Of a stretch of DNA of 44,656 bases, positions 1,079-44,562 are shown in pieces. The notes beneath the pieces are model-generated. The model did not search any database, was not told the origin of the DNA, and was given only the letters and a program-made list of their open reading frames with translations. Position numbers and translations under genes: made by a program. Source of the stretch: Escherichia phage vB_EcoM_SHAK7163; the sequence record OR594179; one strand, 5' to 3'. Every line of letters begins with the position of its first letter. Position 1 is the stretch's first letter.

Positions 1079-1148
1079 ATTAACTATTGACAGCCACGGC
1101 ATACAAGGTTACATTAAGCATCAAGACGGCGACGTCTTTAAACATCCC

Positions 1149-1165
1149 GCTCTTTAACAATCTGG
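1149..1165 (+). repeat. conserved early-intergenic motif, copy 2 of 4
   Basis: GCTCTTTAACAATCTGG; preceded by hairpin AAGACG-GCGA-CGTCTT. Confidence 0.4.
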
Positions 1166-1204
1166 CTAGTGCCTTGGTAGGCTAACTACTTACTAAGGTG
1201 AACT

Positions 1205-34600: not shown

Positions 34601-34968
34601 ACCAAGATGAATACTTGGAAGAGAAGTTATCGCCTAAAGGGTTGGCCTTTGGTGCAATGGGTATGATGAGTACAACTGCTGTATTTAGTCTAGGTGGAGA
34701 TTTCTTAGGTGGCCTAGGTGTTCTGCCCTCTGAGTTAGTACAATCCCGTTATGAGGCTGGCTTTCAGACTAGGGGTTTGATAGACCAAATACCACTAGTA
34801 GGTGTTGGTCAAGATGCATATCGTTTAGCAGATTCTATAACTAAATATGCAGAGGGTGATACAGAAGGTGTAGATGTGGCACGTAGGGCTTTACGCTTAG
34901 TGCCTCTAACTAATGTAATAGGAATACAGAACGCATTGCGTTATGGCTTAGATGAACTGGAGGATTGA
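31648..34968 (+). CDS. internal virion protein (gp16-like, large)
   Basis: 1106 aa, positional equivalent of T7 gp16; no lytic transglycosylase motif recognised. Confidence 0.7.
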   Translation: MEQDIKTNWAGYVQSTPEPFSIEAAPVSAPTIRQRNELQEQVLEAKADADILGAVGAAFQNEWLAFGGKRWYDRATADFTPQPDFEIQPEQREALRFKYGTDMMQTITEGVRSEDELNFRIQNADEDLERNKRIAQAGWVGSVATIGAAVLDPVGWVASIPTGGAAKVGLVGRAVRGAIAAGVSNAAIESVLVQGDMTRDLDDIMVALGSGMAMGGVIGAVARGRATKLSEQGDDRAASVVRSADAGDRYVRAVADDSIGAMRVKGEEVLTEGAFDISSKGEDLLKTLQREGNAIDMTPRRWAGTMSALGTVVHSSQDASVRGLGARLFESPQGLGMQKASASLMQNTNLNRLKSADMNRFNDGFDLWLKENNINPVSGHTNSHYVQQYNEKVWEAVRIGMDESTPKSIRMAAEGQQAMYREALALRKRSGEAGFENIKADDKYMPDIFDTMKARRQFDRIGKDIDKEDIIELFSRAYQNGSRKIPKEVADDIARAQVNRVADATLTGQLSFEKAMSGQTKAEYEALMRKAGFSDEEIEKMVEALDNKETRDNISNRAKMSLGLDVTQEYNGIRMRDFMNTNVEELTDNYMKEAAGGAALARQGFSTYQAALNAIDLVERNARNAAKDTKAHAQFEAESAKIRQSEPDYKKAQEKIEELKKQLKLKEKDEAAGLAIDEEIRQMREGLRLIMGKSIDADPQALSTKMLRRGRDITGVLRLGQMGFAQLGELANFMGEFGIAATTIALGKQFRFTSKALRSGDGFFRDKNLAEVERMVGYIGEDNWLTTKGARPDEFGDVTTVRGMMAHFDQSMNSIRRAQTNLSLFRMAQGSLERMTNRQIALSFIDHLEGKKIIPQKKLEELGLTQEFMTNLQKHYDANSKGSGLLGFDTMPYAMGETLANAIRRKSGLIIQRNFIGDEGIWMNKALGKTFAQLKSFSLVSGEKQFGRGIRHDKIGLAKKTAYGFALGSIVYAAKAYVNSIGREDQDEYLEEKLSPKGLAFGAMGMMSTTAVFSLGGDFLGGLGVLPSELVQSRYEAGFQTRGLIDQIPLVGVGQDAYRLADSITKYAEGDTEGVDVARRALRLVPLTNVIGIQNALRYGLDELED

Positions 34969-35930
34969 TGAGTTATACTTTCACAGAACATATAGCCAAC
35001 GGTACGCAAGTAACCTATCCCTTTAGCTTTGCTGGCAGGGATAAAGGCTATCTTCGTGCCTCAGATGTGATAGTGGAATCTCTTCAAGGTAACACTTGGA
35101 TTGAGATTACATCTGGCTGGCAATTAACTGGTACGCATCAAATCACTTTTGATGTAGCACCAGTTGCAGGTTTGAAGTTCCGTATTCGAAGGGAAGTACA
35201 AAAAGAATATCCATACGCTGAGTTTGACCGTGGTGTTACCTTGGATATGAAGTCTTTAAATGGTTCTTTCATTCATATACTGGAGATTACACAGGAGTTA
35301 CTTGATGGGTTTTATCCAGAAGGGTACTTCATTAAGCAGAATGTAAGCTGGGGCGGCAATAAGATTACTGACCTAGCTGATGGTGAGAATCCAAAAGATG
35401 CAGTAAATAAATCACAGCTAGATGCTATCGACAAGAAGCATACTGATTGGAACTCTGCACAAGATATAGAGATTGCTGGTATTAAGAGAGGGATGGTGTC
35501 TGGTGTATCGCATCGAACTATTCCTTGGTATATGGTTGCCTCCGGTGGAGAGCAAATCATTCGACCACCTTACTCCTTTGATGATGCTATGGTGTTTATA
35601 AACGGTGTATTCCAGCATGAACTAGCAGGTGCAGTATCCGTGGGGTATGATGTTATAACCCTGTCCGAGCCATTACAGGCTGGGGATGAAGTTTATGTGC
35701 TTATCGGTAGTCGCTTAACCCCACCTACAAGTGCGGATACTATCCTCTTTACACAAGCAGTGAGTGAAGGTACACAATCTATCGACATTGTAACGGCTTT
35801 CCAACGTCTTGATGTATATTTGGATGGACTGTATCAACCTAATAATACTTATGAAATCGTAGGCTCTACTATCACTTTCAGTGAGCCATTGCCTGAGTGT
35901 GTCGTAAGTATGAAGTTACAACTAGTGTAA
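34968..35930 (+). CDS. tail fibre adapter (T7 gp17 N-terminal domain-like, lacks receptor-binding part)
   Basis: 320 aa; KFRIRREVQKEYPYAEFDRGVTLDMKSLN...GNKITDLADGENPKDAVNKSQLDAI resembles remembered T7 gp17 N-terminus (ELRRVTSTTDRLVDFTDGSILRAYDLN...GRRIVNLANAVDDRDAVPFGQLKTM). Confidence 0.75.
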   Translation: MSYTFTEHIANGTQVTYPFSFAGRDKGYLRASDVIVESLQGNTWIEITSGWQLTGTHQITFDVAPVAGLKFRIRREVQKEYPYAEFDRGVTLDMKSLNGSFIHILEITQELLDGFYPEGYFIKQNVSWGGNKITDLADGENPKDAVNKSQLDAIDKKHTDWNSAQDIEIAGIKRGMVSGVSHRTIPWYMVASGGEQIIRPPYSFDDAMVFINGVFQHELAGAVSVGYDVITLSEPLQAGDEVYVLIGSRLTPPTSADTILFTQAVSEGTQSIDIVTAFQRLDVYLDGLYQPNNTYEIVGSTITFSEPLPECVVSMKLQLV

Positions 35931-35939
35931 GGAGGTGCA

Positions 35940-36134
35940 ATGATTAACTCCGAACTGGTAGATAGTGGTGTGAAGCTGGCGCCACCTGCATTAGTATCAG
36001 GTGGGTACTTCCTCGGTATCAGTTGGGATAATTGGGTGTTAATAGCAACATTCATTTATACCGTGTTGCAAATTGGAGACTGGTTTTATACCAAGATTAA
36101 ACTATGGAGGAGGAGCCGTGAGCGTACACAATAA
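35940..36134 (+). CDS. holin (T7 gp17.5-like)
   Basis: 64 aa; one TM; NWVLIATFIYTVLQIGDWFYTKIKLW resembles remembered T7 gp17.5 (EWFYVAAIAYTVVQIGAKVVDKMIDW); SD GGAGG. Confidence 0.75.
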   Translation: MINSELVDSGVKLAPPALVSGGYFLGISWDNWVLIATFIYTVLQIGDWFYTKIKLWRRSRERTQ

Positions 36135-36417
36135 ACATGCAGCTACGGAAGACGAGGTTGGCATTCTACATGGTGCTATTACCAAAATCTTTAATAAGAA
36201 AGCACAGGCAATACTGGACACTATAGAAGAAGACCCAGATGCAGCACTGCATTTAGTCTCTGGTAAAGACATTGGGGCTATGTGTAAGTGGGTTCTTGAT
36301 AATGGTATTACCGCTACACCCGCTGCACAGCAGGAGGAGTCCAAGCTATCTAAGCGCCTCAAGGCTATCCGAGAGGCATCAAGTGGCAAGATCATCCAAT
36401 TCACTAAGGAGGATTGA
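36118..36417 (+). CDS. putative terminase small subunit (gp18 position)
   Basis: GTG start 5 nt after GGAGGAGG (track ORF begins at upstream ATG 36073); located immediately before the large terminase gene. Confidence 0.5.
   Translation: MSVHNKHAATEDEVGILHGAITKIFNKKAQAILDTIEEDPDAALHLVSGKDIGAMCKWVLDNGITATPAAQQEESKLSKRLKAIREASSGKIIQFTKED
36209..36231 (+). promoter_or_regulatory. phage promoter-like sequence inside small-terminase coding region
   Basis: CAATACTGGACACTATAGAAGAA; core conserved, -17..-14 diverged; encodes ...ILDTIEE... Confidence 0.45.
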
Positions 36418-38313: not shown

Positions 38314-38336
38314 ATTTACTGGACACTATAGGAGGA
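38314..38336 (+). promoter_or_regulatory. phage RNAP promoter
   Basis: ATTTACTGGACACTATAGGAGGA. Confidence 0.8.
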
Positions 38337-38469: not shown

Positions 38470-38751
38470 ATGGCTAATAATTATAGTGATCAACCACTAA
38501 CAGGTCGATATGATCGAAAGCAGGAGACGCCTGTAAGTGAAGCGTTAATGCTCCCTGTTGTTACAGAGGGGTCTATTAAGAAGAAAGCCAATGTTATCAA
38601 TGATGCAACCAAATCTGGTAAACAGAAAGCAGCAATGGTGTGTCGTCCTGTAGGTGGCACTCTTGAGATTGCCATTGCTACTGGCAGCAAAGAGGATGCA
38701 GATTGGTTGTCTGTTAAAATGGATGGCGTTGGTCTTATTACACCGGCTTAA
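38470..38751 (+). CDS. hypothetical protein, paralog 1 of a tandem triad (93 aa)
   Basis: SD AAGGAG; shares about 45-residue motif block (SGKQK.AMV...G....IAIA.GS...D.W) with the next two ORFs. Confidence 0.55.
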   Translation: MANNYSDQPLTGRYDRKQETPVSEALMLPVVTEGSIKKKANVINDATKSGKQKAAMVCRPVGGTLEIAIATGSKEDADWLSVKMDGVGLITPA

Positions 38752-38767: not shown

Positions 38768-39055
38768 ATGTCTAAGTATGGCGATGCAGGTACTACTACT
38801 GGTCAGGCTTTTCGTGTAAAAGCAGTACAAACTATTGCAACTGCAATCCCTATGCCTATCGTGGCAGAAGCTGACCTTAAAAAGAAAGATCATCCAATTA
38901 ATATTGAATACCTATCTGGTAAGCAGAAAGGTGCTATGGTGGTTGTAGATAAAGGAGATAATAGCCTTTATATTGCTATTGCACGTGGTTCTGCACCAAC
39001 TGACCAGTGGGATGTAACTACTATGGAAGCTGAACCTGTAACACCAGGAGCTTAA
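38768..39055 (+). CDS. hypothetical protein, paralog 2 (95 aa)
   Basis: ATG after AAGGAGA (track ORF 38654 starts upstream inside paralog 1); LSGKQKGAMVVVDKGDNSLYIAIARGSAPTDQWDV. Confidence 0.55.
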   Translation: MSKYGDAGTTTGQAFRVKAVQTIATAIPMPIVAEADLKKKDHPINIEYLSGKQKGAMVVVDKGDNSLYIAIARGSAPTDQWDVTTMEAEPVTPGA

Positions 39056-39056
39056 T

Positions 39057-39749
39057 ATGCTGGGAGTAACAGGACAACGCAATAAGAATGTAGCCACCAA
39101 AGTAGTGGCTGATTTAGCTACTGCTGCTACTGTCGAGGAATTACGAGATCAACATAGCTCTATTAACCGTGCTGACCTTTCTGGTAAACAAGAAGGCTCC
39201 GCTGTTATTGTTAAGAAAGAAGATGGGAATTATTCTATCTTTGTAGCAACAGGAAGCAAGCCGACTGATGTGTGGAAAGAGTTGTCTCCAACAATACCAG
39301 AGCAAGAGATGCCTGCTGAATATATTGATATGATTGATGTTCAAATTCATCAAGATTCTGCAAGCAACTTACGTATAGACTCTTCTCGCACTAGTTTAAT
39401 ACAGACACCAATGTGGGATACTGAAGGTGAGTTGTTATTCCGTAATACACTAAGTGCAACATGTTCTTGTACTATTCTTGTTGTTGAGGGTGAGTCTGGT
39501 GTTCGTCAGGATTTTACTTTTAAGATTAATGGACTTTTAGAGCAGGAAGAGCAGTATTATGATATTGACACACTTATGTGCTCTATTCACTCTGCAACAA
39601 CAACTAATGGCCTTACTTTGTGTATGCCAGATGCTAAAAGTGCAAAGACTAATAAAGTGGTAGTTAAGATCGACACTATGCAGTCATTAGCTATGAGCTT
39701 TGATCTTAACTTCCTTGTAGAATGGACGTCACCAACGAGGTTACTATAA
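39057..39749 (+). CDS. hypothetical protein, paralog 3 with C-terminal extension (230 aa)
   Basis: SD AGGAG; N-terminal LSGKQEGSAVIVKKEDGNYSIFVATGSKPTDVWKEL paralogous to previous two; additional 150-aa C-terminal domain. Confidence 0.6.
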   Translation: MLGVTGQRNKNVATKVVADLATAATVEELRDQHSSINRADLSGKQEGSAVIVKKEDGNYSIFVATGSKPTDVWKELSPTIPEQEMPAEYIDMIDVQIHQDSASNLRIDSSRTSLIQTPMWDTEGELLFRNTLSATCSCTILVVEGESGVRQDFTFKINGLLEQEEQYYDIDTLMCSIHSATTTNGLTLCMPDAKSAKTNKVVVKIDTMQSLAMSFDLNFLVEWTSPTRLL

Positions 39750-40093
39750 TGCTAAATCAGTACTTCAAGCGTAAAGAATTTGCTTGCCGTTGTGGGTGCG
39801 GTACATCCACTGTTGATGCTGAGTTACTACAGGTAGTAACAGATGTGCGTGAGCACTTTGGTACTCCTGTTGTTATCACTTCTGGTCATCGCTGCGCCAA
39901 GCACAATGCTAATGTAGGTGGGGTTAATAACTCCATGCATCTTACTGGTAAGGCTGCTGACATTAAAGTGTCTGGCATATTACCTTCTGAAGTGCATAAG
40001 TATCTTACTAGCAAATACAAAGGCAAGTATGGTATCGGTAAGTATAACTCCTTCACCCACATCGATGTACGGGATGGTTGTGCGCGATGGTAA
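39749..40093 (+). CDS. endolysin, peptidase M15-type (zinc L-Ala-D-Glu/D-Ala-D-Ala peptidase fold)
   Basis: 114 aa; SGHRCAKHNANVGGVNNSMHLTGKAADI...FTHIDVRDG fits the M15 H..D..H zinc-binding signature; ATG overlaps upstream stop. Confidence 0.75.
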   Translation: MLNQYFKRKEFACRCGCGTSTVDAELLQVVTDVREHFGTPVVITSGHRCAKHNANVGGVNNSMHLTGKAADIKVSGILPSEVHKYLTSKYKGKYGIGKYNSFTHIDVRDGCARW

Positions 40094-40218
40094 GATGTGT
40101 TGAATGGTGTGAGCGTATGGTTGCCCAAGCTGCCGAGGATGGCAACTATGATGACTGGAAGAACTACTCTGACTTGTTAGCTCAATGGAAAGGGAGATGC
40201 AATGAAAAAGCTGTTTAA
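40087..40218 (+). CDS. hypothetical small protein (43 aa)
   Basis: ORF only; below track cutoff. Confidence 0.25.
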   Translation: MVRCVEWCERMVAQAAEDGNYDDWKNYSDLLAQWKGRCNEKAV

Positions 40219-40351
40219 GTCTAAGAAGGTTGTAGGTGCACTGGTTGCACTTGTTATTGCTCTTGTTTCTGTAGGTCTTGGTGTAGACCTTGGCTCTGGC
40301 ACGGAATCCTCTGTGACAGATGTGGTCTGCCAAGTGATTACCTGTGAATAA
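40202..40351 (+). CDS. small membrane protein (49 aa), lysis-cluster associated
   Basis: SD GGGAG; MKKLFKSKK then hydrophobic VVGALVALVIALVSVGLGV. Confidence 0.4.
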   Translation: MKKLFKSKKVVGALVALVIALVSVGLGVDLGSGTESSVTDVVCQVITCE

Positions 40352-40565
40352 GTTTCTAGAAGTGCTGGCAGGTCTTATTGGCCTGCTTGTCTCTGCTAAG
40401 AAGAAACAAGAAGAGAAGGAGGCACAAAGTGAAGCGAATCATGCTAGCGACAACCCTGCTGATTGGTTCGCTGATCATTTCAGGGTGTCAGACGGCGTTA
40501 CCAGAGAATCCAAAGGTGAAGCCTCTGAAGCCGACGCTTACGGCAGTCTACGAGGTGGACGATAA
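40344..40565 (+). CDS. candidate i-spanin (Rz-like), short
   Basis: GTG start; N-terminal TM FLEVLAGLIGLLVSA then charged periplasmic-like region; contains the lipoprotein ORF in another frame. Confidence 0.35.
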   Translation: MNKFLEVLAGLIGLLVSAKKKQEEKEAQSEANHASDNPADWFADHFRVSDGVTRESKGEASEADAYGSLRGGR

Positions 40566-40638
40566 AGTCTGCTTCAGTAAGCCTGACGCTACAAAATTAG
40601 GTCTGTACATTCTCTCGCTAGAACGAGGGTATAATTAA
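40429..40638 (+). CDS. candidate o-spanin (Rz1-like outer-membrane lipoprotein)
   Basis: GTG 7 nt after AGGAGG; signal peptide with lipobox LIISGC; proline-rich PENPKVKPLKPT; overlapped with the Rz-like ORF. Confidence 0.55.
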   Translation: MKRIMLATTLLIGSLIISGCQTALPENPKVKPLKPTLTAVYEVDDKVCFSKPDATKLGLYILSLERGYN

Positions 40639-40667: not shown

Positions 40668-40690
40668 ATTTACTGGACACTATAGAAGAG
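40668..40690 (+). promoter_or_regulatory. phage RNAP promoter upstream of tailspike module
   Basis: ATTTACTGGACACTATAGAAGAG (exact consensus). Confidence 0.8.
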
Positions 40691-40769
40691 ATAAGATAGT
40701 GCCGTTCTTTTGAGCGGCATATTACTAGCCAATCTTCATAGGGAGGATTGGGAAGTAATAGGAGAGTAT

Positions 40770-41105
40770 ATGGCTAAGTTAACTAAACCCAAGACAACTG
40801 GCTTACTACATAGAGATACTGTACTAGCTACATTATTGGACAATTTACTATCTAAAAGGCGTGTTACATTTGAAGGTGTAGTTCCAAGTGAAGATACTAA
40901 AATTGAGATAGAAGTACCTGCAACAGGAGATTTAGATTCTTCGTGGGCATCACTTGTATCATTAAGTACACCTACACTTTGTACAGCTTGGATTACTAAA
41001 GTGTCAGATACTAGATTAGAAGTACATGTGTTCCATACAGCACAAGTTGAAATAGACATAGATGTAGATGTTTACATTCTAGGTAAACACATTGTCAGTG
41101 CGTAA
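40770..41105 (+). CDS. hypothetical protein (111 aa) immediately upstream of tailspike
   Basis: ATG after GGAGAG (track ORF begins upstream at 40710); no motifs recognised. Confidence 0.55.
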   Translation: MAKLTKPKTTGLLHRDTVLATLLDNLLSKRRVTFEGVVPSEDTKIEIEVPATGDLDSSWASLVSLSTPTLCTAWITKVSDTRLEVHVFHTAQVEIDIDVDVYILGKHIVSA

Positions 41106-43942: not shown

Positions 43943-44252
43943 CTCGCCCTCGCCCTCGCCGGGTTGCCCCCCCCCCCCATAGGGTGGCCTGAGGGAATCC
44001 GTCTTCGACGGGCAGGGCTGATGTACTCCTTGTACTAGCTTAGTAGTACACAAGGGCTGGCCGTACTAGTTAGCTGGTACAGCCTAGTCTTTGCTCATGT
44101 ACTAGCAAGGTGGAACGCGGTAGACGGCCTAGGACAGCCTAGGAATGGCTTAGTGGTGGACAAGGTGATTACCTTAGTGAAGCCTCTTAGTGCATTCCTG
44201 AGGCCATTCAGGGCGTTTATGAGGGATTGACAGGGTGGGTGTGGGTGGGCTA
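43943..44252. repeat. 310-bp unit, copy 1 of exact tandem duplication (probable terminal repeat, right-end copy)
   Basis: 43943-44252 is identical base-for-base to 44253-44562; flanking bases differ immediately on both sides. Confidence 0.9.
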
Positions 44253-44562
44253 CTCGCCCTCGCCCTCGCCGGGTTGCCCCCCCCCCCCATAGGGTGGCCT
44301 GAGGGAATCCGTCTTCGACGGGCAGGGCTGATGTACTCCTTGTACTAGCTTAGTAGTACACAAGGGCTGGCCGTACTAGTTAGCTGGTACAGCCTAGTCT
44401 TTGCTCATGTACTAGCAAGGTGGAACGCGGTAGACGGCCTAGGACAGCCTAGGAATGGCTTAGTGGTGGACAAGGTGATTACCTTAGTGAAGCCTCTTAG
44501 TGCATTCCTGAGGCCATTCAGGGCGTTTATGAGGGATTGACAGGGTGGGTGTGGGTGGGCTA
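44253..44562. repeat. 310-bp unit, copy 2 of exact tandem duplication (probable terminal repeat, left-end copy)
   Basis: Identical to 43943-44252; contains C12 tract, (CTCGCC)3 and G-tract cluster GGGTGGGTGTGGGTGGG. Confidence 0.9.

What the first reader, a model, noticed from the sequence alone, without database searches (positions are those of the whole stretch)
39749..40638. Lysis cassette with M15 peptidase endolysin and overlapped spanin pair, separate from the holin
The endolysin is a zinc peptidase (M15-type) rather than the amidase-type lysozyme of T7. It is followed by small membrane ORFs and a lipoprotein ORF (lipobox LIISGC, proline-rich) overlapped out-of-frame with a short TM-containing ORF, the typical Rz/Rz1 spanin arrangement. 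The gp17.5-like holin is encoded about 4 kb upstream at 35940, so lysis functions are split between two loci. The i-spanin candidate is unusually short (73 aa) and its start is uncertain.
Basis: partly seen in the sequence, partly recalled or inferred. Interest (0 to 1): 0.45.

Follow-up and report, generated by a model that had tools for sequence, protein, structure and literature searches.

The report
Known K1E-type phage lysis cassette
This is the ordinary, already published lysis gene cluster of a K1E/SP6-like E. coli phage (zinc-peptidase endolysin plus an outer-membrane lipoprotein), but one small conserved gene overlapping the lipoprotein gene is left out of most annotations and its role is still unsettled.

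Summary
Window 39749-40638 is the late lysis cassette of a K1E-like Vectrevirus: 96% identical to a GenBank phage and about 91% to K1E.

It encodes:
- a signal-less Peptidase_M15_3 endolysin (E=2e-32);
- a 43-aa soluble protein;
- a 49-aa type-II membrane protein;
- a 73-aa GTG-started ORF;
- overlapping that ORF in the +1 frame, a 69-aa lipoprotein (lipobox IISG|C) already annotated as an o-spanin.

A T7 gp17.5-type holin (PF10746, E=5.5e-27) lies at 35940-36134, so the split layout is real. It is also already described for SP6-like phages.

New here:
- The 73-aa ORF is a genuine gene (pN/pS 0.30 in frame, against 1.7 and 3.1 out of frame).
- It belongs to a family of at least 72 clusters.
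- It co-occurs with this lipoprotein family in all 47 loci examined, sampled from both sides.
- Family-wide its N-terminus is an amphipathic helix, not a canonical transmembrane domain, so calling it a "TM-containing i-spanin" is unproven.
- Expert annotations instead call the 49-aa protein the i-spanin, yet that protein is homologous to two-TMD holin-like proteins.

Verdict: a known cassette, interpretation partly supported, low to moderate interest.

The parts
35940..36134 (+). T7 gp17.5-type holin (64 aa), between the T7-tail-fibre-like gene (34965-35930) and the small terminase gene (36073-36417)
   Evidence: PF10746 Phage_holin_2_2, E=5.5e-27. tblastn with T7 gp17.5 (sequence from memory): 34% identity, E=1.5e-6. 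Neighbours are PF03906 and PF11123.
38316..38336 (+). K1E-type phage RNA polymerase promoter that opens the transcription unit containing the cassette
   Evidence: 3-mismatch match to TTACTGGACACTATAGAAGAG. Nine matches in the window against 0 expected.
39749..40093 (+). Endolysin: cytoplasmic LAS-type zinc peptidase (Peptidase_M15_3), 114 aa, with no signal or SAR sequence
   Evidence: PF08291, E=1.9e-32. phrog_894 endolysin, E=1e-43. Aligns to the zinc-site region of Streptomyces DD-carboxypeptidase 1LBU. H64-x6-D71 and H104-x-D106 are present. pN/pS 0.22.
40087..40218 (+). 43-aa soluble Cys-containing protein of unknown function (phrog_1312); its start overlaps the endolysin stop
   Evidence: phrog_1312, E=2e-18. 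pN/pS 0.24. About 40-aa counterparts with the C..WC....G...Y..L..W pattern occur in Aeromonas, Edwardsiella and Ralstonia phages.
40202..40351 (+). 49-aa type-II (N-in/C-out) membrane protein, the K1E gp44 homologue. It has a basic N-terminus, a 19-residue TMD and a 21-residue periplasmic tail ending C-x4-C-x. It is called 'holin' or 'i-spanin' depending on the annotator.
   Evidence: phrog_4712 'holin', E=3e-27. Strong TMD: KD19 2.76, with uncharged runs of 17-19 residues in all homologues. Labelled i-spanin in the Kongari 2018 supplement, LL11 and Premi. Homologous to two-TMD holin-like proteins (hhalign 95.7%, E=1e-8). pN/pS 0.26.
40344..40565 (+). 73-aa protein (phrog_9219, unannotated in K1E). 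It consists of an N-terminal amphipathic/weakly hydrophobic helix, a charged helix, the invariant N-P-x-D-W-F-x-D-H-F motif and an unconstrained tail. It is the obligate genomic partner of the o-spanin gene.
   Evidence: pN/pS 0.30 in frame, against 1.7 and 3.1 out of frame, in the 75-nt non-overlapped part; 0.21 in the motif part. Variable sites by codon position: 14/6/19 of 25 (Fisher p=5e-4). 72 family clusters. AF2: helix 2-36, helix 38-45, disordered 46-73. Annotated as gp48 in SP6 and orf53 in PP99.
40416..40422 (+). Shine-Dalgarno AAGGAGG for the o-spanin gene, lying inside the 73-aa ORF
   Evidence: Read directly from the sequence. Invariant across 24 loci except one G substitution.
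40429..40638 (+). o-spanin: outer-membrane lipoprotein precursor (69 aa, mature 50 aa), the K1E gp45 homologue. It has a Pro-containing linker and a small C-terminal hairpin-plus-helix domain with a conserved Cys and the LGxYIxxLERGY motif.
   Evidence: phrog_8971 'Rz-like spanin', E=9e-39. Lipobox I-S-G-C20 with Q at +2, read from the sequence. UniRef and GenBank name it 'O-spanin'. AF2: strands 40-43 and 46-49, helix 51-64, pLDDT 92-96. pN/pS 0.12 in the non-overlapped part.
40670..40690 (+). Perfect K1E-type phage promoter immediately downstream; it marks the end of the cassette and drives the tailspike genes
   Evidence: 0-mismatch match. Conserved in all aligned loci; SP6 relatives carry the SP6 variant ATTTAGGTGACACTATAGAAGAG.

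Best explanation
This is the standard late lysis cassette of a K1E/SP6-type podophage, transcribed from the phage promoter at 38316.

Shown:
- The endolysin is a small zinc peptidase of the M15_3 (LAS) fold with no export signal. It must therefore wait in the cytoplasm for the T7-type holin encoded at 35940 to open the inner membrane.
- Downstream lie four tightly coupled small genes: a 43-aa soluble protein, a 49-aa N-in/C-out membrane protein, a 73-aa protein, and, overlapping the 73-aa gene in the +1 frame, an outer-membrane lipoprotein.
- The 73-aa ORF is a real gene under purifying selection.
- The 73-aa gene plus lipoprotein gene form an ancient, invariably linked overlapped pair.

Inferred:
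- The lipoprotein is the o-spanin, and the 73-aa protein is its functional partner, i.e. the i-spanin equivalent.
- The partner probably contacts the lipoprotein's folded C-terminal domain through its NPxDWFxDHF motif, and contacts the inner membrane through its N-terminal amphipathic helix, possibly helped by the 49-aa membrane protein as an anchor.
- After the endolysin removes the wall, the complex would disrupt the outer membrane.
- Because the partner lacks a canonical TMD or signal peptide, it may reach the periplasm only through the holin lesion. This last step is speculation.
For: Identity of the cassette:
- 96% identity to phage SHAK7704 and about 91% to K1E, where gp43, gp44 and gp45 are annotated endolysin, holin and Rz-like spanin.
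- Endolysin.
- Holin.
- o-spanin: phrog_8971, lipobox read from the sequence, database names, Kongari 2018 supplement.

The 73-aa ORF is coding:
- The frame-specific pN/pS and codon-position pattern support coding in that frame.
- It is conserved at about 40% identity in Proteus, Klebsiella, Pseudomonas, Vibrio, Pectobacterium, Erwinia, Aeromonas, Edwardsiella and Ralstonia phages.
- The exhaustive HMM search found 72 clusters.

Linkage of the pair:
- All 42 loci found through the 73-aa protein carry the overlapped lipoprotein.
- All 5 distant loci found through the lipoprotein carry the overlapped 73-aa-type ORF.
- The linkage holds whatever the endolysin type: M15_3, VanY, GH108, T4-type lysozyme, DUF5675 or transglycosylase.

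Other points:
- In the overlap, selection follows the 73-aa frame over the motif (0.21 against 0.78) and the lipoprotein frame over the tail (0.50 against 0.87).
- One natural protein (P0080/L040) fuses a 49-aa-like TMD directly to the 73-aa-type domain. That gives a canonical i-spanin topology and still overlaps the lipoprotein gene.
- Kongari et al. themselves called the homologous ORF of UAB_Phi78 an overlapped i-spanin.
Against: - The 73-aa family has no canonical TMD. Positions 2, 3, 6, 9, 10, 13, 16 and 17 are charged in 22-59% of members, the periodicity is 95-100 degrees, and no uncharged run reaches 17 residues.
- In the window, three lysines follow the hydrophobic stretch, which by the positive-inside rule disfavours N-in/C-out.
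- There is no signal peptide and no long coiled coil, and the C-terminal tail is unconstrained, whereas lambda Rz contacts Rz1 through its C-terminus.
- Spanin specialists annotate the 49-aa protein, not this ORF, as the i-spanin in K1-5, K1E, SP6, LL11 and Premi.
- A 49-aa homologue pairs with a different lipoprotein, without any 73-aa-type ORF, at the gene 18.5/18.7 position of Vibrio phage ICP3.
- No experiment on any of these small proteins was found in the literature searched.
Confidence: 0.55

Rival explanations
1. Separated two-component spanin, which is the current expert annotation. The 49-aa type-II membrane protein would be the i-spanin and the lipoprotein the o-spanin. The 73-aa protein would be an accessory factor of another kind, for example a regulator.
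For: - The 49-aa protein has a strong TMD with a highly basic N-terminus (N-in/C-out), plus two invariant periplasmic cysteines of the kind spanins use for disulfide-linked dimers.
- This is the assignment made by Kongari et al. 2018 and by the CPT annotations of LL11 and Premi.
- An ICP3/VP4 homologue sits with a lipoprotein exactly where T7 has genes 18.5/18.7.
Against: - Only 21 periplasmic residues. Kongari's own notes read 'Too small?' and 'Too short'.
- The family is homologous to the N-terminal two-thirds of two-TMD holin-like proteins (hhalign 95.7%; PHROG cross-hits).
- It is absent from distant cassettes that keep the same lipoprotein family: L039, L043 and L044 have phrog_9685 proteins instead.
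- The 73-aa-type gene, by contrast, is never absent.
Confidence: 0.25
2. The 49-aa protein would be a holin-family remnant (second holin, antiholin or holin cofactor). The 73-aa protein would be its cytoplasmic or peripheral partner acting at the inner membrane. Its overlap with the lipoprotein gene would then serve only for compact, coupled expression.
For: - RefSeq and PHROGs label the 49-aa protein 'holin'.
- It is homologous to two-TMD proteins that occupy the holin position next to the endolysin in L046 and L048-L050.
- The 73-aa start is translationally coupled to the upstream membrane-protein gene in 38 of 42 loci.
- The 73-aa protein has an amphipathic helix followed by a basic patch and then an acidic region. 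That fits a cytoplasmic membrane-surface protein.
- A small extra membrane protein acting at the holin level has a precedent: Lcc6 of LambdaSo.
Against: - It leaves the o-spanin without an inner-membrane partner.
- It does not explain why the 73-aa gene tracks the lipoprotein family perfectly while its upstream neighbour changes family.
- The TMD fusion in L040 places the domain on the periplasmic side.
Confidence: 0.17
3. The 73-aa ORF is a chance open frame lying over the lipoprotein gene and an intergenic spacer, as the K1E, K1-5, LL11 and Premi annotations imply.
For: - It is unannotated in many records.
- It has a GTG start with no obvious Shine-Dalgarno.
Against: - Coding signature in the supposedly intergenic 75 nt: pN/pS 0.30 in frame against 1.7 and 3.1 out of frame; codon-position p=5e-4.
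- An invariant motif maintained at the expense of the lipoprotein's synonymous sites: 7 of 21 third positions variable, against 15 of 24 outside the overlap.
- Homologues down to about 25% identity in 72 clusters.
Confidence: 0.02

Closest known systems
K1E gp43-gp45, K1-5 gp44/45 and SP6 gp46-gp48 lysis region (Vectrevirus/Zindervirus, Molineuxvirinae)
   Same: Same genes in the same order at 80-98% protein identity. The endolysin, 49-aa protein and lipoprotein are annotated in RefSeq. The 73-aa ORF is annotated as SP6 gp48.
   Different: Nothing substantive. The window is another isolate of this group. Annotations disagree among themselves about which small ORFs are genes and what they are.
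Lambda Rz/Rz1 and T7 gp18.5/gp18.7 two-component spanins
   Same: An outer-membrane lipoprotein gene starts out of frame inside the gene of its presumed partner. The genes sit next to the endolysin in a lysis cassette. The lipoprotein has a conserved extra cysteine, as lambda Rz1 has C29 (established knowledge).
   Different: No sequence similarity to T7 gp18.5 or gp18.7 (queries from memory).

The partner is 73 aa, against about 150 aa for Rz. It lacks a canonical TMD and a long periplasmic coiled coil.

The lipoprotein has a folded hairpin-plus-helix domain rather than an unstructured proline-rich chain.

The architecture is 'overlapped', not 'embedded' as in lambda and T7.
Kongari et al. 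2018 spanin families 'K1-5, K1E, SP6' (separated) and UAB_Phi78 (overlapped)
   Same: Exactly these proteins. The lipoprotein is their o-spanin family (K1-5, K1E, SP6, UAB_phi78). The UAB_Phi78 overlapped i-spanin (69 aa) is the homologue of the 73-aa ORF.
   Different: For K1-5, K1E and SP6 they chose the 49-aa protein as the i-spanin, flagging it 'too small'. The analysis here shows that the overlapped ORF is present and under selection in those phages too, and is the component that always travels with the lipoprotein.
LAS/M15 zinc peptidases: Streptomyces albus DD-carboxypeptidase (PDB 1LBU) and E. coli MepK
   Same: H-x6-D ... H-x-D zinc site and a Pfam M15_3 match.
   Different: A minimal 114-aa catalytic domain with no binding domain. 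The bond it cleaves is unknown. The MepK model scores far below its cutoff (29.7 against 185 bits).
phiKT gp28 'disruptin' and T1 gp11 unimolecular spanin
   Same: Alternative small proteins that disrupt the outer membrane. Disruptin is also a short amphipathic-helix protein encoded in a lysis cassette (abstract of 10.1101/515445).
   Different: Disruptin is cationic and works alone. The 73-aa protein is net acidic and always paired with a lipoprotein.

The lipoprotein has no C-terminal TMD, so it is not a u-spanin.

Membership tests
Peptidase_M15_3 (LAS zinc peptidase) endolysin | Profile match above the curated threshold | tested here: met
   PF08291: 112 bits against a 23.2-bit cutoff, E=1.9e-32, covering 2-108 of 108 profile positions.
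Peptidase_M15_3 (LAS zinc peptidase) endolysin | Zinc ligands H-x6-D and a C-terminal H (H-x-D) | tested here: met
   H64-LTGKAA-D71 and H104-I-D106. The first motif aligns with the 1LBU zinc-site segment.
Peptidase_M15_3 (LAS zinc peptidase) endolysin | Peptidoglycan-cleaving activity and the identity of the bond cut | not testable with these tools
   Needs a muropeptide assay.
Canonical (holin-dependent) endolysin | No signal peptide or SAR domain | tested here: met
   The N-terminus MLNQYFKRKEFACRCGCG has no hydrophobic stretch. Gajwadongvirus relatives, by contrast, have a secreted transglycosylase.
T7-type holin (Phage_holin_2_2) | Profile match; one hydrophobic segment and a charged C-terminus; gene between the tail fibre and small terminase genes | tested here: met
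   PF10746, 93.7 bits against a 25.4-bit cutoff. Flanked by PF03906 and PF11123 genes. Sequence shown.
o-spanin (Rz1-like outer-membrane lipoprotein) | Lipoprotein signal peptide with a lipobox Cys, and a +2 residue that is not Asp | tested here: met
   MKRIMLATTLLIGSLIISG|C20-Q21 fits the PROSITE PS51257 pattern (pattern recalled from memory). The Cys is invariant in 49 family members.
o-spanin (Rz1-like outer-membrane lipoprotein) | Small mature periplasmic protein encoded in a lysis cassette, overlapping or adjacent to the partner gene | tested here: met
   50 mature residues, directly after the endolysin, overlapped with the 73-aa ORF.
o-spanin (Rz1-like outer-membrane lipoprotein) | Required for outer-membrane disruption; complements Rz1 defects | not testable with these tools
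   No experimental report found.
i-spanin (Rz-like): the 73-aa ORF as candidate | N-terminal type-II transmembrane domain | tested here: not met
   Family-wide the segment is an amphipathic helix: median longest uncharged run 8, none of 17 or more among 71 representatives, with a polar face charged in 22-59% of members. The window's own variant is borderline: a 12-residue uncharged run, KD19 1.25, and KKK on the C-side.
i-spanin (Rz-like): the 73-aa ORF as candidate | Extended alpha-helical (coiled-coil) periplasmic domain | tested here: inconclusive
   AF2 gives one helix over 2-36 plus a short helix over 38-45, then disorder. Only about 18 helical residues lie beyond the hydrophobic part, far shorter than Rz.
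i-spanin (Rz-like): the 73-aa ORF as candidate | Gene embeds or overlaps the o-spanin gene and always co-occurs with it | tested here: met
   47 of 47 loci, sampled from both sides.
i-spanin (Rz-like): the 73-aa ORF as candidate | Physical complex with the o-spanin | not testable with these tools
i-spanin (Rz-like): the 49-aa ORF as candidate | N-terminal type-II transmembrane domain | tested here: met
   19-residue uncharged run, KD19 2.76, five Lys before the TMD.
i-spanin (Rz-like): the 49-aa ORF as candidate | Periplasmic domain long enough to reach the o-spanin; coiled coil | tested here: not met
   21 residues with no coiled coil. Flagged 'Too small?' by Kongari et al..
i-spanin (Rz-like): the 49-aa ORF as candidate | Co-occurrence with this o-spanin family | tested here: not met
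   Present in Autographiviridae relatives. Replaced by two-TMD or phrog_9685 proteins in L037, L039, L043, L044 and L046-L050.
Unimolecular spanin (T1 gp11 type) | Lipoprotein signal plus a C-terminal TMD in one chain | tested here: not met
   The C-terminal hydrophobic stretch LGLYILSL is only 8 residues and is predicted to be part of a small folded domain.

The most novel reading that the evidence does not exclude
The SP6/K1E-type 'mini-spanin' may not be a classical two-component spanin.

On this reading, its conserved core is an outer-membrane lipoprotein with a small folded domain, plus a roughly 70-aa partner that has no TMD and no signal peptide (phrog_9219). The partner would be made in the cytoplasm and could meet the lipoprotein only after the holin opens the inner membrane. 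Alternatively, it would be tethered by a separate small membrane protein, the 49-aa protein here, making a three-part spanin.

That would be a new architecture for outer-membrane disruption. It would be widespread (at least 72 protein clusters, several phage lineages and endolysin types) and currently mis-annotated even by spanin specialists.
Probability: 0.35. Interest if true: 0.6.

Novelty: already known. Interest (0 to 1): 0.3.

Why it matters
As a genome feature it does not matter much. The cassette is the published K1E/SP6 one, and the split holin/endolysin layout is documented.

The useful residue is an annotation correction and a testable question. A conserved gene overlapping the o-spanin gene is missing from K1E, K1-5, LL11, Premi and many other records. 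It is the only component that always accompanies this o-spanin family.

If it is the true partner, the 'too small to span the periplasm' anomaly noted by Kongari et al. would be explained. A TMD-less i-spanin equivalent would also broaden the known ways phages breach the outer membrane. This is relevant to the engineering of K1- and K5-specific therapeutic phages.

Tried and rejected
- **Pfam and NCBIfam on the four small proteins.** No family found. Pfam on all 75 members of the 73-aa family gave only noise.
- **Single-sequence homologue search with the 73-aa protein.** Returned only close, unnamed relatives. The exhaustive profile search was needed to find the family.
- **Foldseek of both AF2 models against viral structures.** Only uncharacterized family members appeared; nothing informative.
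- **tblastn of T7 gp3.5, gp18.5 and gp18.7 (sequences from memory) against the window.** No homologues, so there is no T7-type amidase or T7-type Rz/Rz1.
- **N-terminus of the 73-aa protein as a Sec signal peptide (VSA|KKK).** Rejected: the site is not conserved (LAY, LDA in relatives) and three lysines follow it.
- **u-spanin and disruptin models.** Rejected; see the membership tests.
- **LambdaSo spanin preprint.** Read in case it described the same module. Its Rz is a normal 174-aa TMD protein and is unrelated.
- **Sigma-70 promoter and terminator scan of the cassette.** Nothing above the shuffled expectation.
- **Caveat.** The crude Hessa/Kyte-Doolittle sums (scales from memory) do not cleanly separate weak real TMDs such as T7 gp18.5 from the window's 73-aa N-terminus. 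The TMD argument therefore rests on the family-wide charge pattern.
Full report
**What the window is**

The 1.7 kb around the finding is 96.4% identical to Escherichia phage vB_EcoM_SHAK7704 and about 91% identical to phage K1E and many other K1-specific Vectrevirus genomes (Autographiviridae, Molineuxvirinae, the SP6 relatives). In RefSeq K1E, the corresponding genes 43, 44 and 45 are annotated endolysin, holin and Rz-like spanin. The 811-aa ORF downstream corresponds to the gene annotated 'tail spike endosialidase' in related records. The finding therefore concerns a published, annotated cassette.

**Check of the observation**

- *Endolysin (39749-40093, 114 aa).* It matches Pfam Peptidase_M15_3 over the whole profile (E=1.9e-32) and PHROG 894 'endolysin'. 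It aligns with the zinc-site segment of the Streptomyces DD-carboxypeptidase 1LBU. It carries H64-x6-D71 and H104-x-D106. It has no hydrophobic N-terminus, so it is a cytoplasmic, holin-dependent enzyme.
- *Holin (35940-36134, 64 aa).* It matches PF10746, the T7 holin family (E=5.5e-27). It lies between a T7-tail-fibre-like gene and the small terminase gene, as gene 17.5 does in T7.
- *The split layout is already known.* Holin next to the terminase, with endolysin and 'Rz/Rz1' several kb downstream, has been described for SP6-like phages (PMC4640515).

**The small genes**

Four small ORFs follow the endolysin.

1. *40087-40218 (43 aa).* Soluble; belongs to PHROG 1312, function unknown.
2. *40202-40351 (49 aa).* It has five lysines, then a 19-residue hydrophobic segment, then a 21-residue tail ending C-x4-C-E.
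3. *40344-40565 (73 aa).* It starts at a GTG embedded in GTGAATAA, overlapping the previous stop.
4. *40429-40638 (69 aa).* It starts at a GTG 6 nt after AAGGAGG, in the +1 frame relative to ORF 3. It encodes MKRIMLATTLLIGSLIISG|CQ..., a textbook lipoprotein precursor with a non-Asp +2 residue. It belongs to PHROG 8971 'Rz-like spanin' and is named O-spanin in UniRef and GenBank.

A phage promoter match (3 mismatches to the consensus) at 38316 and a perfect copy at 40670 bracket the unit.

**Is the 73-aa ORF a gene?**

Yes.

- *Alignment set.* I aligned the region from 23 related loci plus the window.
- *Non-overlapped part.* The 75 nt that K1E annotation treats as intergenic (40353-40427) have pN/pS = 0.30 in the 73-aa frame, against 1.73 and 3.10 in the other two frames. 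That is comparable to the endolysin, at 0.22. Variable sites fall 14/6/19 on codon positions 1/2/3 (Fisher p=5e-4 for position 3 against position 2).
- *Overlap, motif stretch.* Over the stretch that encodes the lipoprotein's signal peptide, selection follows the 73-aa frame (0.21 against 0.78).
- *Overlap, downstream part.* There selection follows the lipoprotein frame (0.50 against 0.87).
- *Synonymous sites of the lipoprotein.* These sites are depressed over the motif: 7 of 21 third positions vary there. Outside the overlap, 15 of 24 vary.
- *Wider conservation.* tblastn finds the ORF at about 40-50% identity in Proteus, Klebsiella, Pseudomonas, Vibrio, Pectobacterium, Erwinia, Aeromonas, Edwardsiella and Ralstonia podophages. 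It is annotated as gp48 in SP6 and orf53 in PP99.
- *Family size.* An exhaustive profile search of 1.8 billion representatives found 72 clusters of 49-95 aa proteins, apart from two N-terminally extended chimeras, with no Pfam family.
- *Start codon.* Confirmed by ATG starts at the equivalent position in 8 loci, overlap with the upstream stop in 38 of 42 loci, and a constant distance of about 36 residues from the N-terminus to the motif.

**What the 73-aa protein looks like**

- *Consensus.* A leucine-rich N-terminal helix of about 18 residues, then a basic patch, then E-Q-x-x-A-Q-x-E-A-D, then the nearly invariant N-P-x-x-W-F-x-x-H-F-x-G, then a hydrophilic tail that is not conserved.
- *Predicted structure.* AF2 with a 75-sequence alignment gives a continuous helix over 2-36, a short helix over 38-45, and disorder from 46 on. 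pLDDT is 86-92 in the helix.
- *The N-terminal helix is amphipathic across the family.*
  - Positions 1, 4, 5, 7, 8, 11, 12 and 15 are never charged, and position 14 is charged in only 3% of members.
  - Positions 2, 3, 6, 9, 10, 13, 16 and 17 are charged in 22-59% of members.
  - The periodicity peak is at 95-100 degrees.
  - The median longest uncharged run is 8 residues, and no member reaches 17.
- *The window's own variant.* FLEVLAGLIGLLVSA, followed by KKK, is the most hydrophobic kind, but it is still marginal. The positive-inside rule does not favour the N-in/C-out orientation an i-spanin needs.
- *Conclusion.* 'TM-containing' is therefore not established.

**Who is the o-spanin's partner?**

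Three readings exist.

- RefSeq and PHROGs call the 49-aa protein a holin.
- Kongari et al. 2018 and the Center for Phage Technology call it a separated i-spanin in K1-5, K1E, SP6, LL11 and Premi. They comment 'Too small?' and 'Too short', and leave the 73-aa ORF unannotated.
- For UAB_Phi78, the same paper chose the homologue of the 73-aa ORF as an overlapped i-spanin.

I tested co-occurrence from both directions.

- *Found through the 73-aa protein.* Every locus reached this way has the lipoprotein ORF overlapping in the +1 frame: 42 loci, including six distant metagenomic cassettes.
- *Found through the lipoprotein.* A profile search with the lipoprotein found 127 proteins. All five of the most divergent ones that I looked up have an overlapped ORF with the NP..WF..HF motif.
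- *Independence from endolysin type.* The pair persists next to M15_3, VanY/M15_4, GH108, T4-type lysozyme, DUF5675 and transglycosylase endolysins.
- *A by-product of the overlap.* The 'LLIG' so common in these signal peptides is the +1-frame shadow of the D-W-F codons.

The gene upstream of the pair, by contrast, changes family.

- It is the 49-aa protein in Autographiviridae.
- It is a 58-68-aa two-TMD 'SKTxWGG' protein (PHROGs 34682 and 297, 'holin') in L037, L046 and L048-L050.
- It is a PHROG 9685 protein in L039, L043 and L044.
- Profile-profile comparison shows the 49-aa family is homologous to the first TMD and loop of the two-TMD family (hhalign 95.7%, E=1e-8). That weakens its reading as a dedicated i-spanin.

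Two observations still connect the 49-aa family to the envelope-spanning function.

- One natural protein (P0080, locus L040) fuses a 49-aa-like TMD ending in 'WDLG' directly to the 73-aa-type domain. This gives a canonical i-spanin topology and still overlaps the lipoprotein gene.
- In Vibrio phage ICP3, a 47-aa homologue plus an unrelated lipoprotein, with no 73-aa-type ORF, sits between genes 18 and 19, where T7 has its spanins.

**The lipoprotein**

The mature protein is 45-52 residues across the family. It has an invariant lipid-attachment Cys, a P-(T/V)-K-P linker, a nearly invariant second Cys, and the C-terminal D-A-x-x-L-G-x-Y-I-x-x-L-E-R-G-Y. AF2 predicts a compact hairpin (40-43, 46-49) plus helix (51-64) at pLDDT 92-96. 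This is unlike the unstructured proline-rich lambda Rz1. It has no C-terminal TMD, so it is not a unimolecular spanin.

**Most likely mechanism**

- *Shown.* A signal-less M15 endolysin, a T7-type holin elsewhere in the genome, an outer-membrane lipoprotein, a real overlapped partner gene, and tight translational coupling of the four small genes.
- *Inferred.* At the programmed time the holin permeabilizes the inner membrane and the endolysin degrades the wall. The lipoprotein together with the 73-aa protein then destroys the outer membrane. The 73-aa protein would bind the lipoprotein through its invariant motif and bind membrane through its amphipathic helix, possibly docking on the 49-aa protein.
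- *Open.* How a protein without a TMD or signal peptide reaches the periplasm is unresolved. Release through the holin lesion is a possibility, not a result.
- *Probabilities.* About 0.55 for the 73-aa protein as the o-spanin's functional partner; 0.25 for the separated 49-aa/lipoprotein pair; 0.17 for a holin-side role of the 49-aa and 73-aa proteins; about 0.02 for a non-coding ORF.

**Novelty and score**

- The cassette, its M15 endolysin, the o-spanin and the separate holin are all known. The window is one more isolate.
Its 'TM-containing i-spanin' claim, however, is not demonstrated.
- What remains interesting is the unresolved, testable possibility of a TMD-less or three-part spanin that is widespread and under-annotated.
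- Overall interest: 0.3.

Noticed in passing
window 43943-44242 and 44253-44552: A perfect 300-nt direct repeat with 310-nt spacing lies near the right end, downstream of the tailspike gene. It looks like the phage's direct terminal repeat assembled twice (a concatemer junction or assembly artefact) rather than a biological tandem duplication.
   Followed up: no
window 38470-38751, 38768-39055, 39057-39749: Three paralogous ORFs (93, 95 and 230 aa) sit just upstream of the endolysin. Homologues are labelled 'acetyl-CoA acetyltransferase' in RefSeq and PHROG 2725, but there is no Pfam support. Other records call them a duplication region or 'minor capsid protein with Ig-domain'. This is probably a propagated misannotation.
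   Followed up: partly
window 40087-40218: The 43-aa soluble protein (PHROG 1312) has a C..WC...G...Y..L..W pattern and is translationally coupled to the endolysin. Counterparts of about 40 aa occupy the same position in Aeromonas, Edwardsiella and Ralstonia phages. Its function is unknown; it could be a lysis regulator.
   Followed up: partly
window 6354, 8656, 13278, 14047, 15193, 23440, 36211, 38316, 40670 (+ strand): Nine K1E-type phage RNA polymerase promoters (TTACTGGACACTATAGAAGAG, 0-3 mismatches; 0 expected by chance). SP6-clade relatives carry ATTTAGGTGACACTATAGAAGAG at the position equivalent to 40670.
   Followed up: partly
window 1122-1183, 1434-1495, 1697-1758: Three copies of a 62-nt element sharing GCTCTTTAACAATCTGG lie in the early region, spaced 312 and 263 nt apart. 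They are possibly early promoters or regulatory sites.
   Followed up: no
L040 329-616 (protein P0080, TARA metagenome): A natural fusion of a 49-aa-like transmembrane segment (…TVWGALLAITATISQLFGWDLG…) to the 73-aa-type domain, still overlapped by the lipoprotein gene. It is the only N-terminally extended member among about 70 representatives.
   Followed up: partly
L045 1501-1841 (Vibrio phage ICP3, between genes 18 and 19): A 47-aa homologue of the 49-aa protein (PHROG 4712, E=7e-23) is followed directly by an unrelated acidic lipoprotein, with no 73-aa-type ORF. The pair sits at the position of T7 genes 18.5/18.7.
   Followed up: partly
proteins P0055 and P0056: Two database proteins carry the exact C-terminal 42 residues of SP6 gp48 behind unrelated N-termini. 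They are most likely ORFs called on cloning vectors that contain the SP6 promoter fragment.
   Followed up: no
window 40770-41105: A 111-aa ORF (PHROG 15083, unknown function; K1E gp46) lies between the promoter at 40670 and the endosialidase gene. An imperfect hairpin (gccgttc-tttt-gagcggc, 40703-40720) sits in its leader.
   Followed up: no
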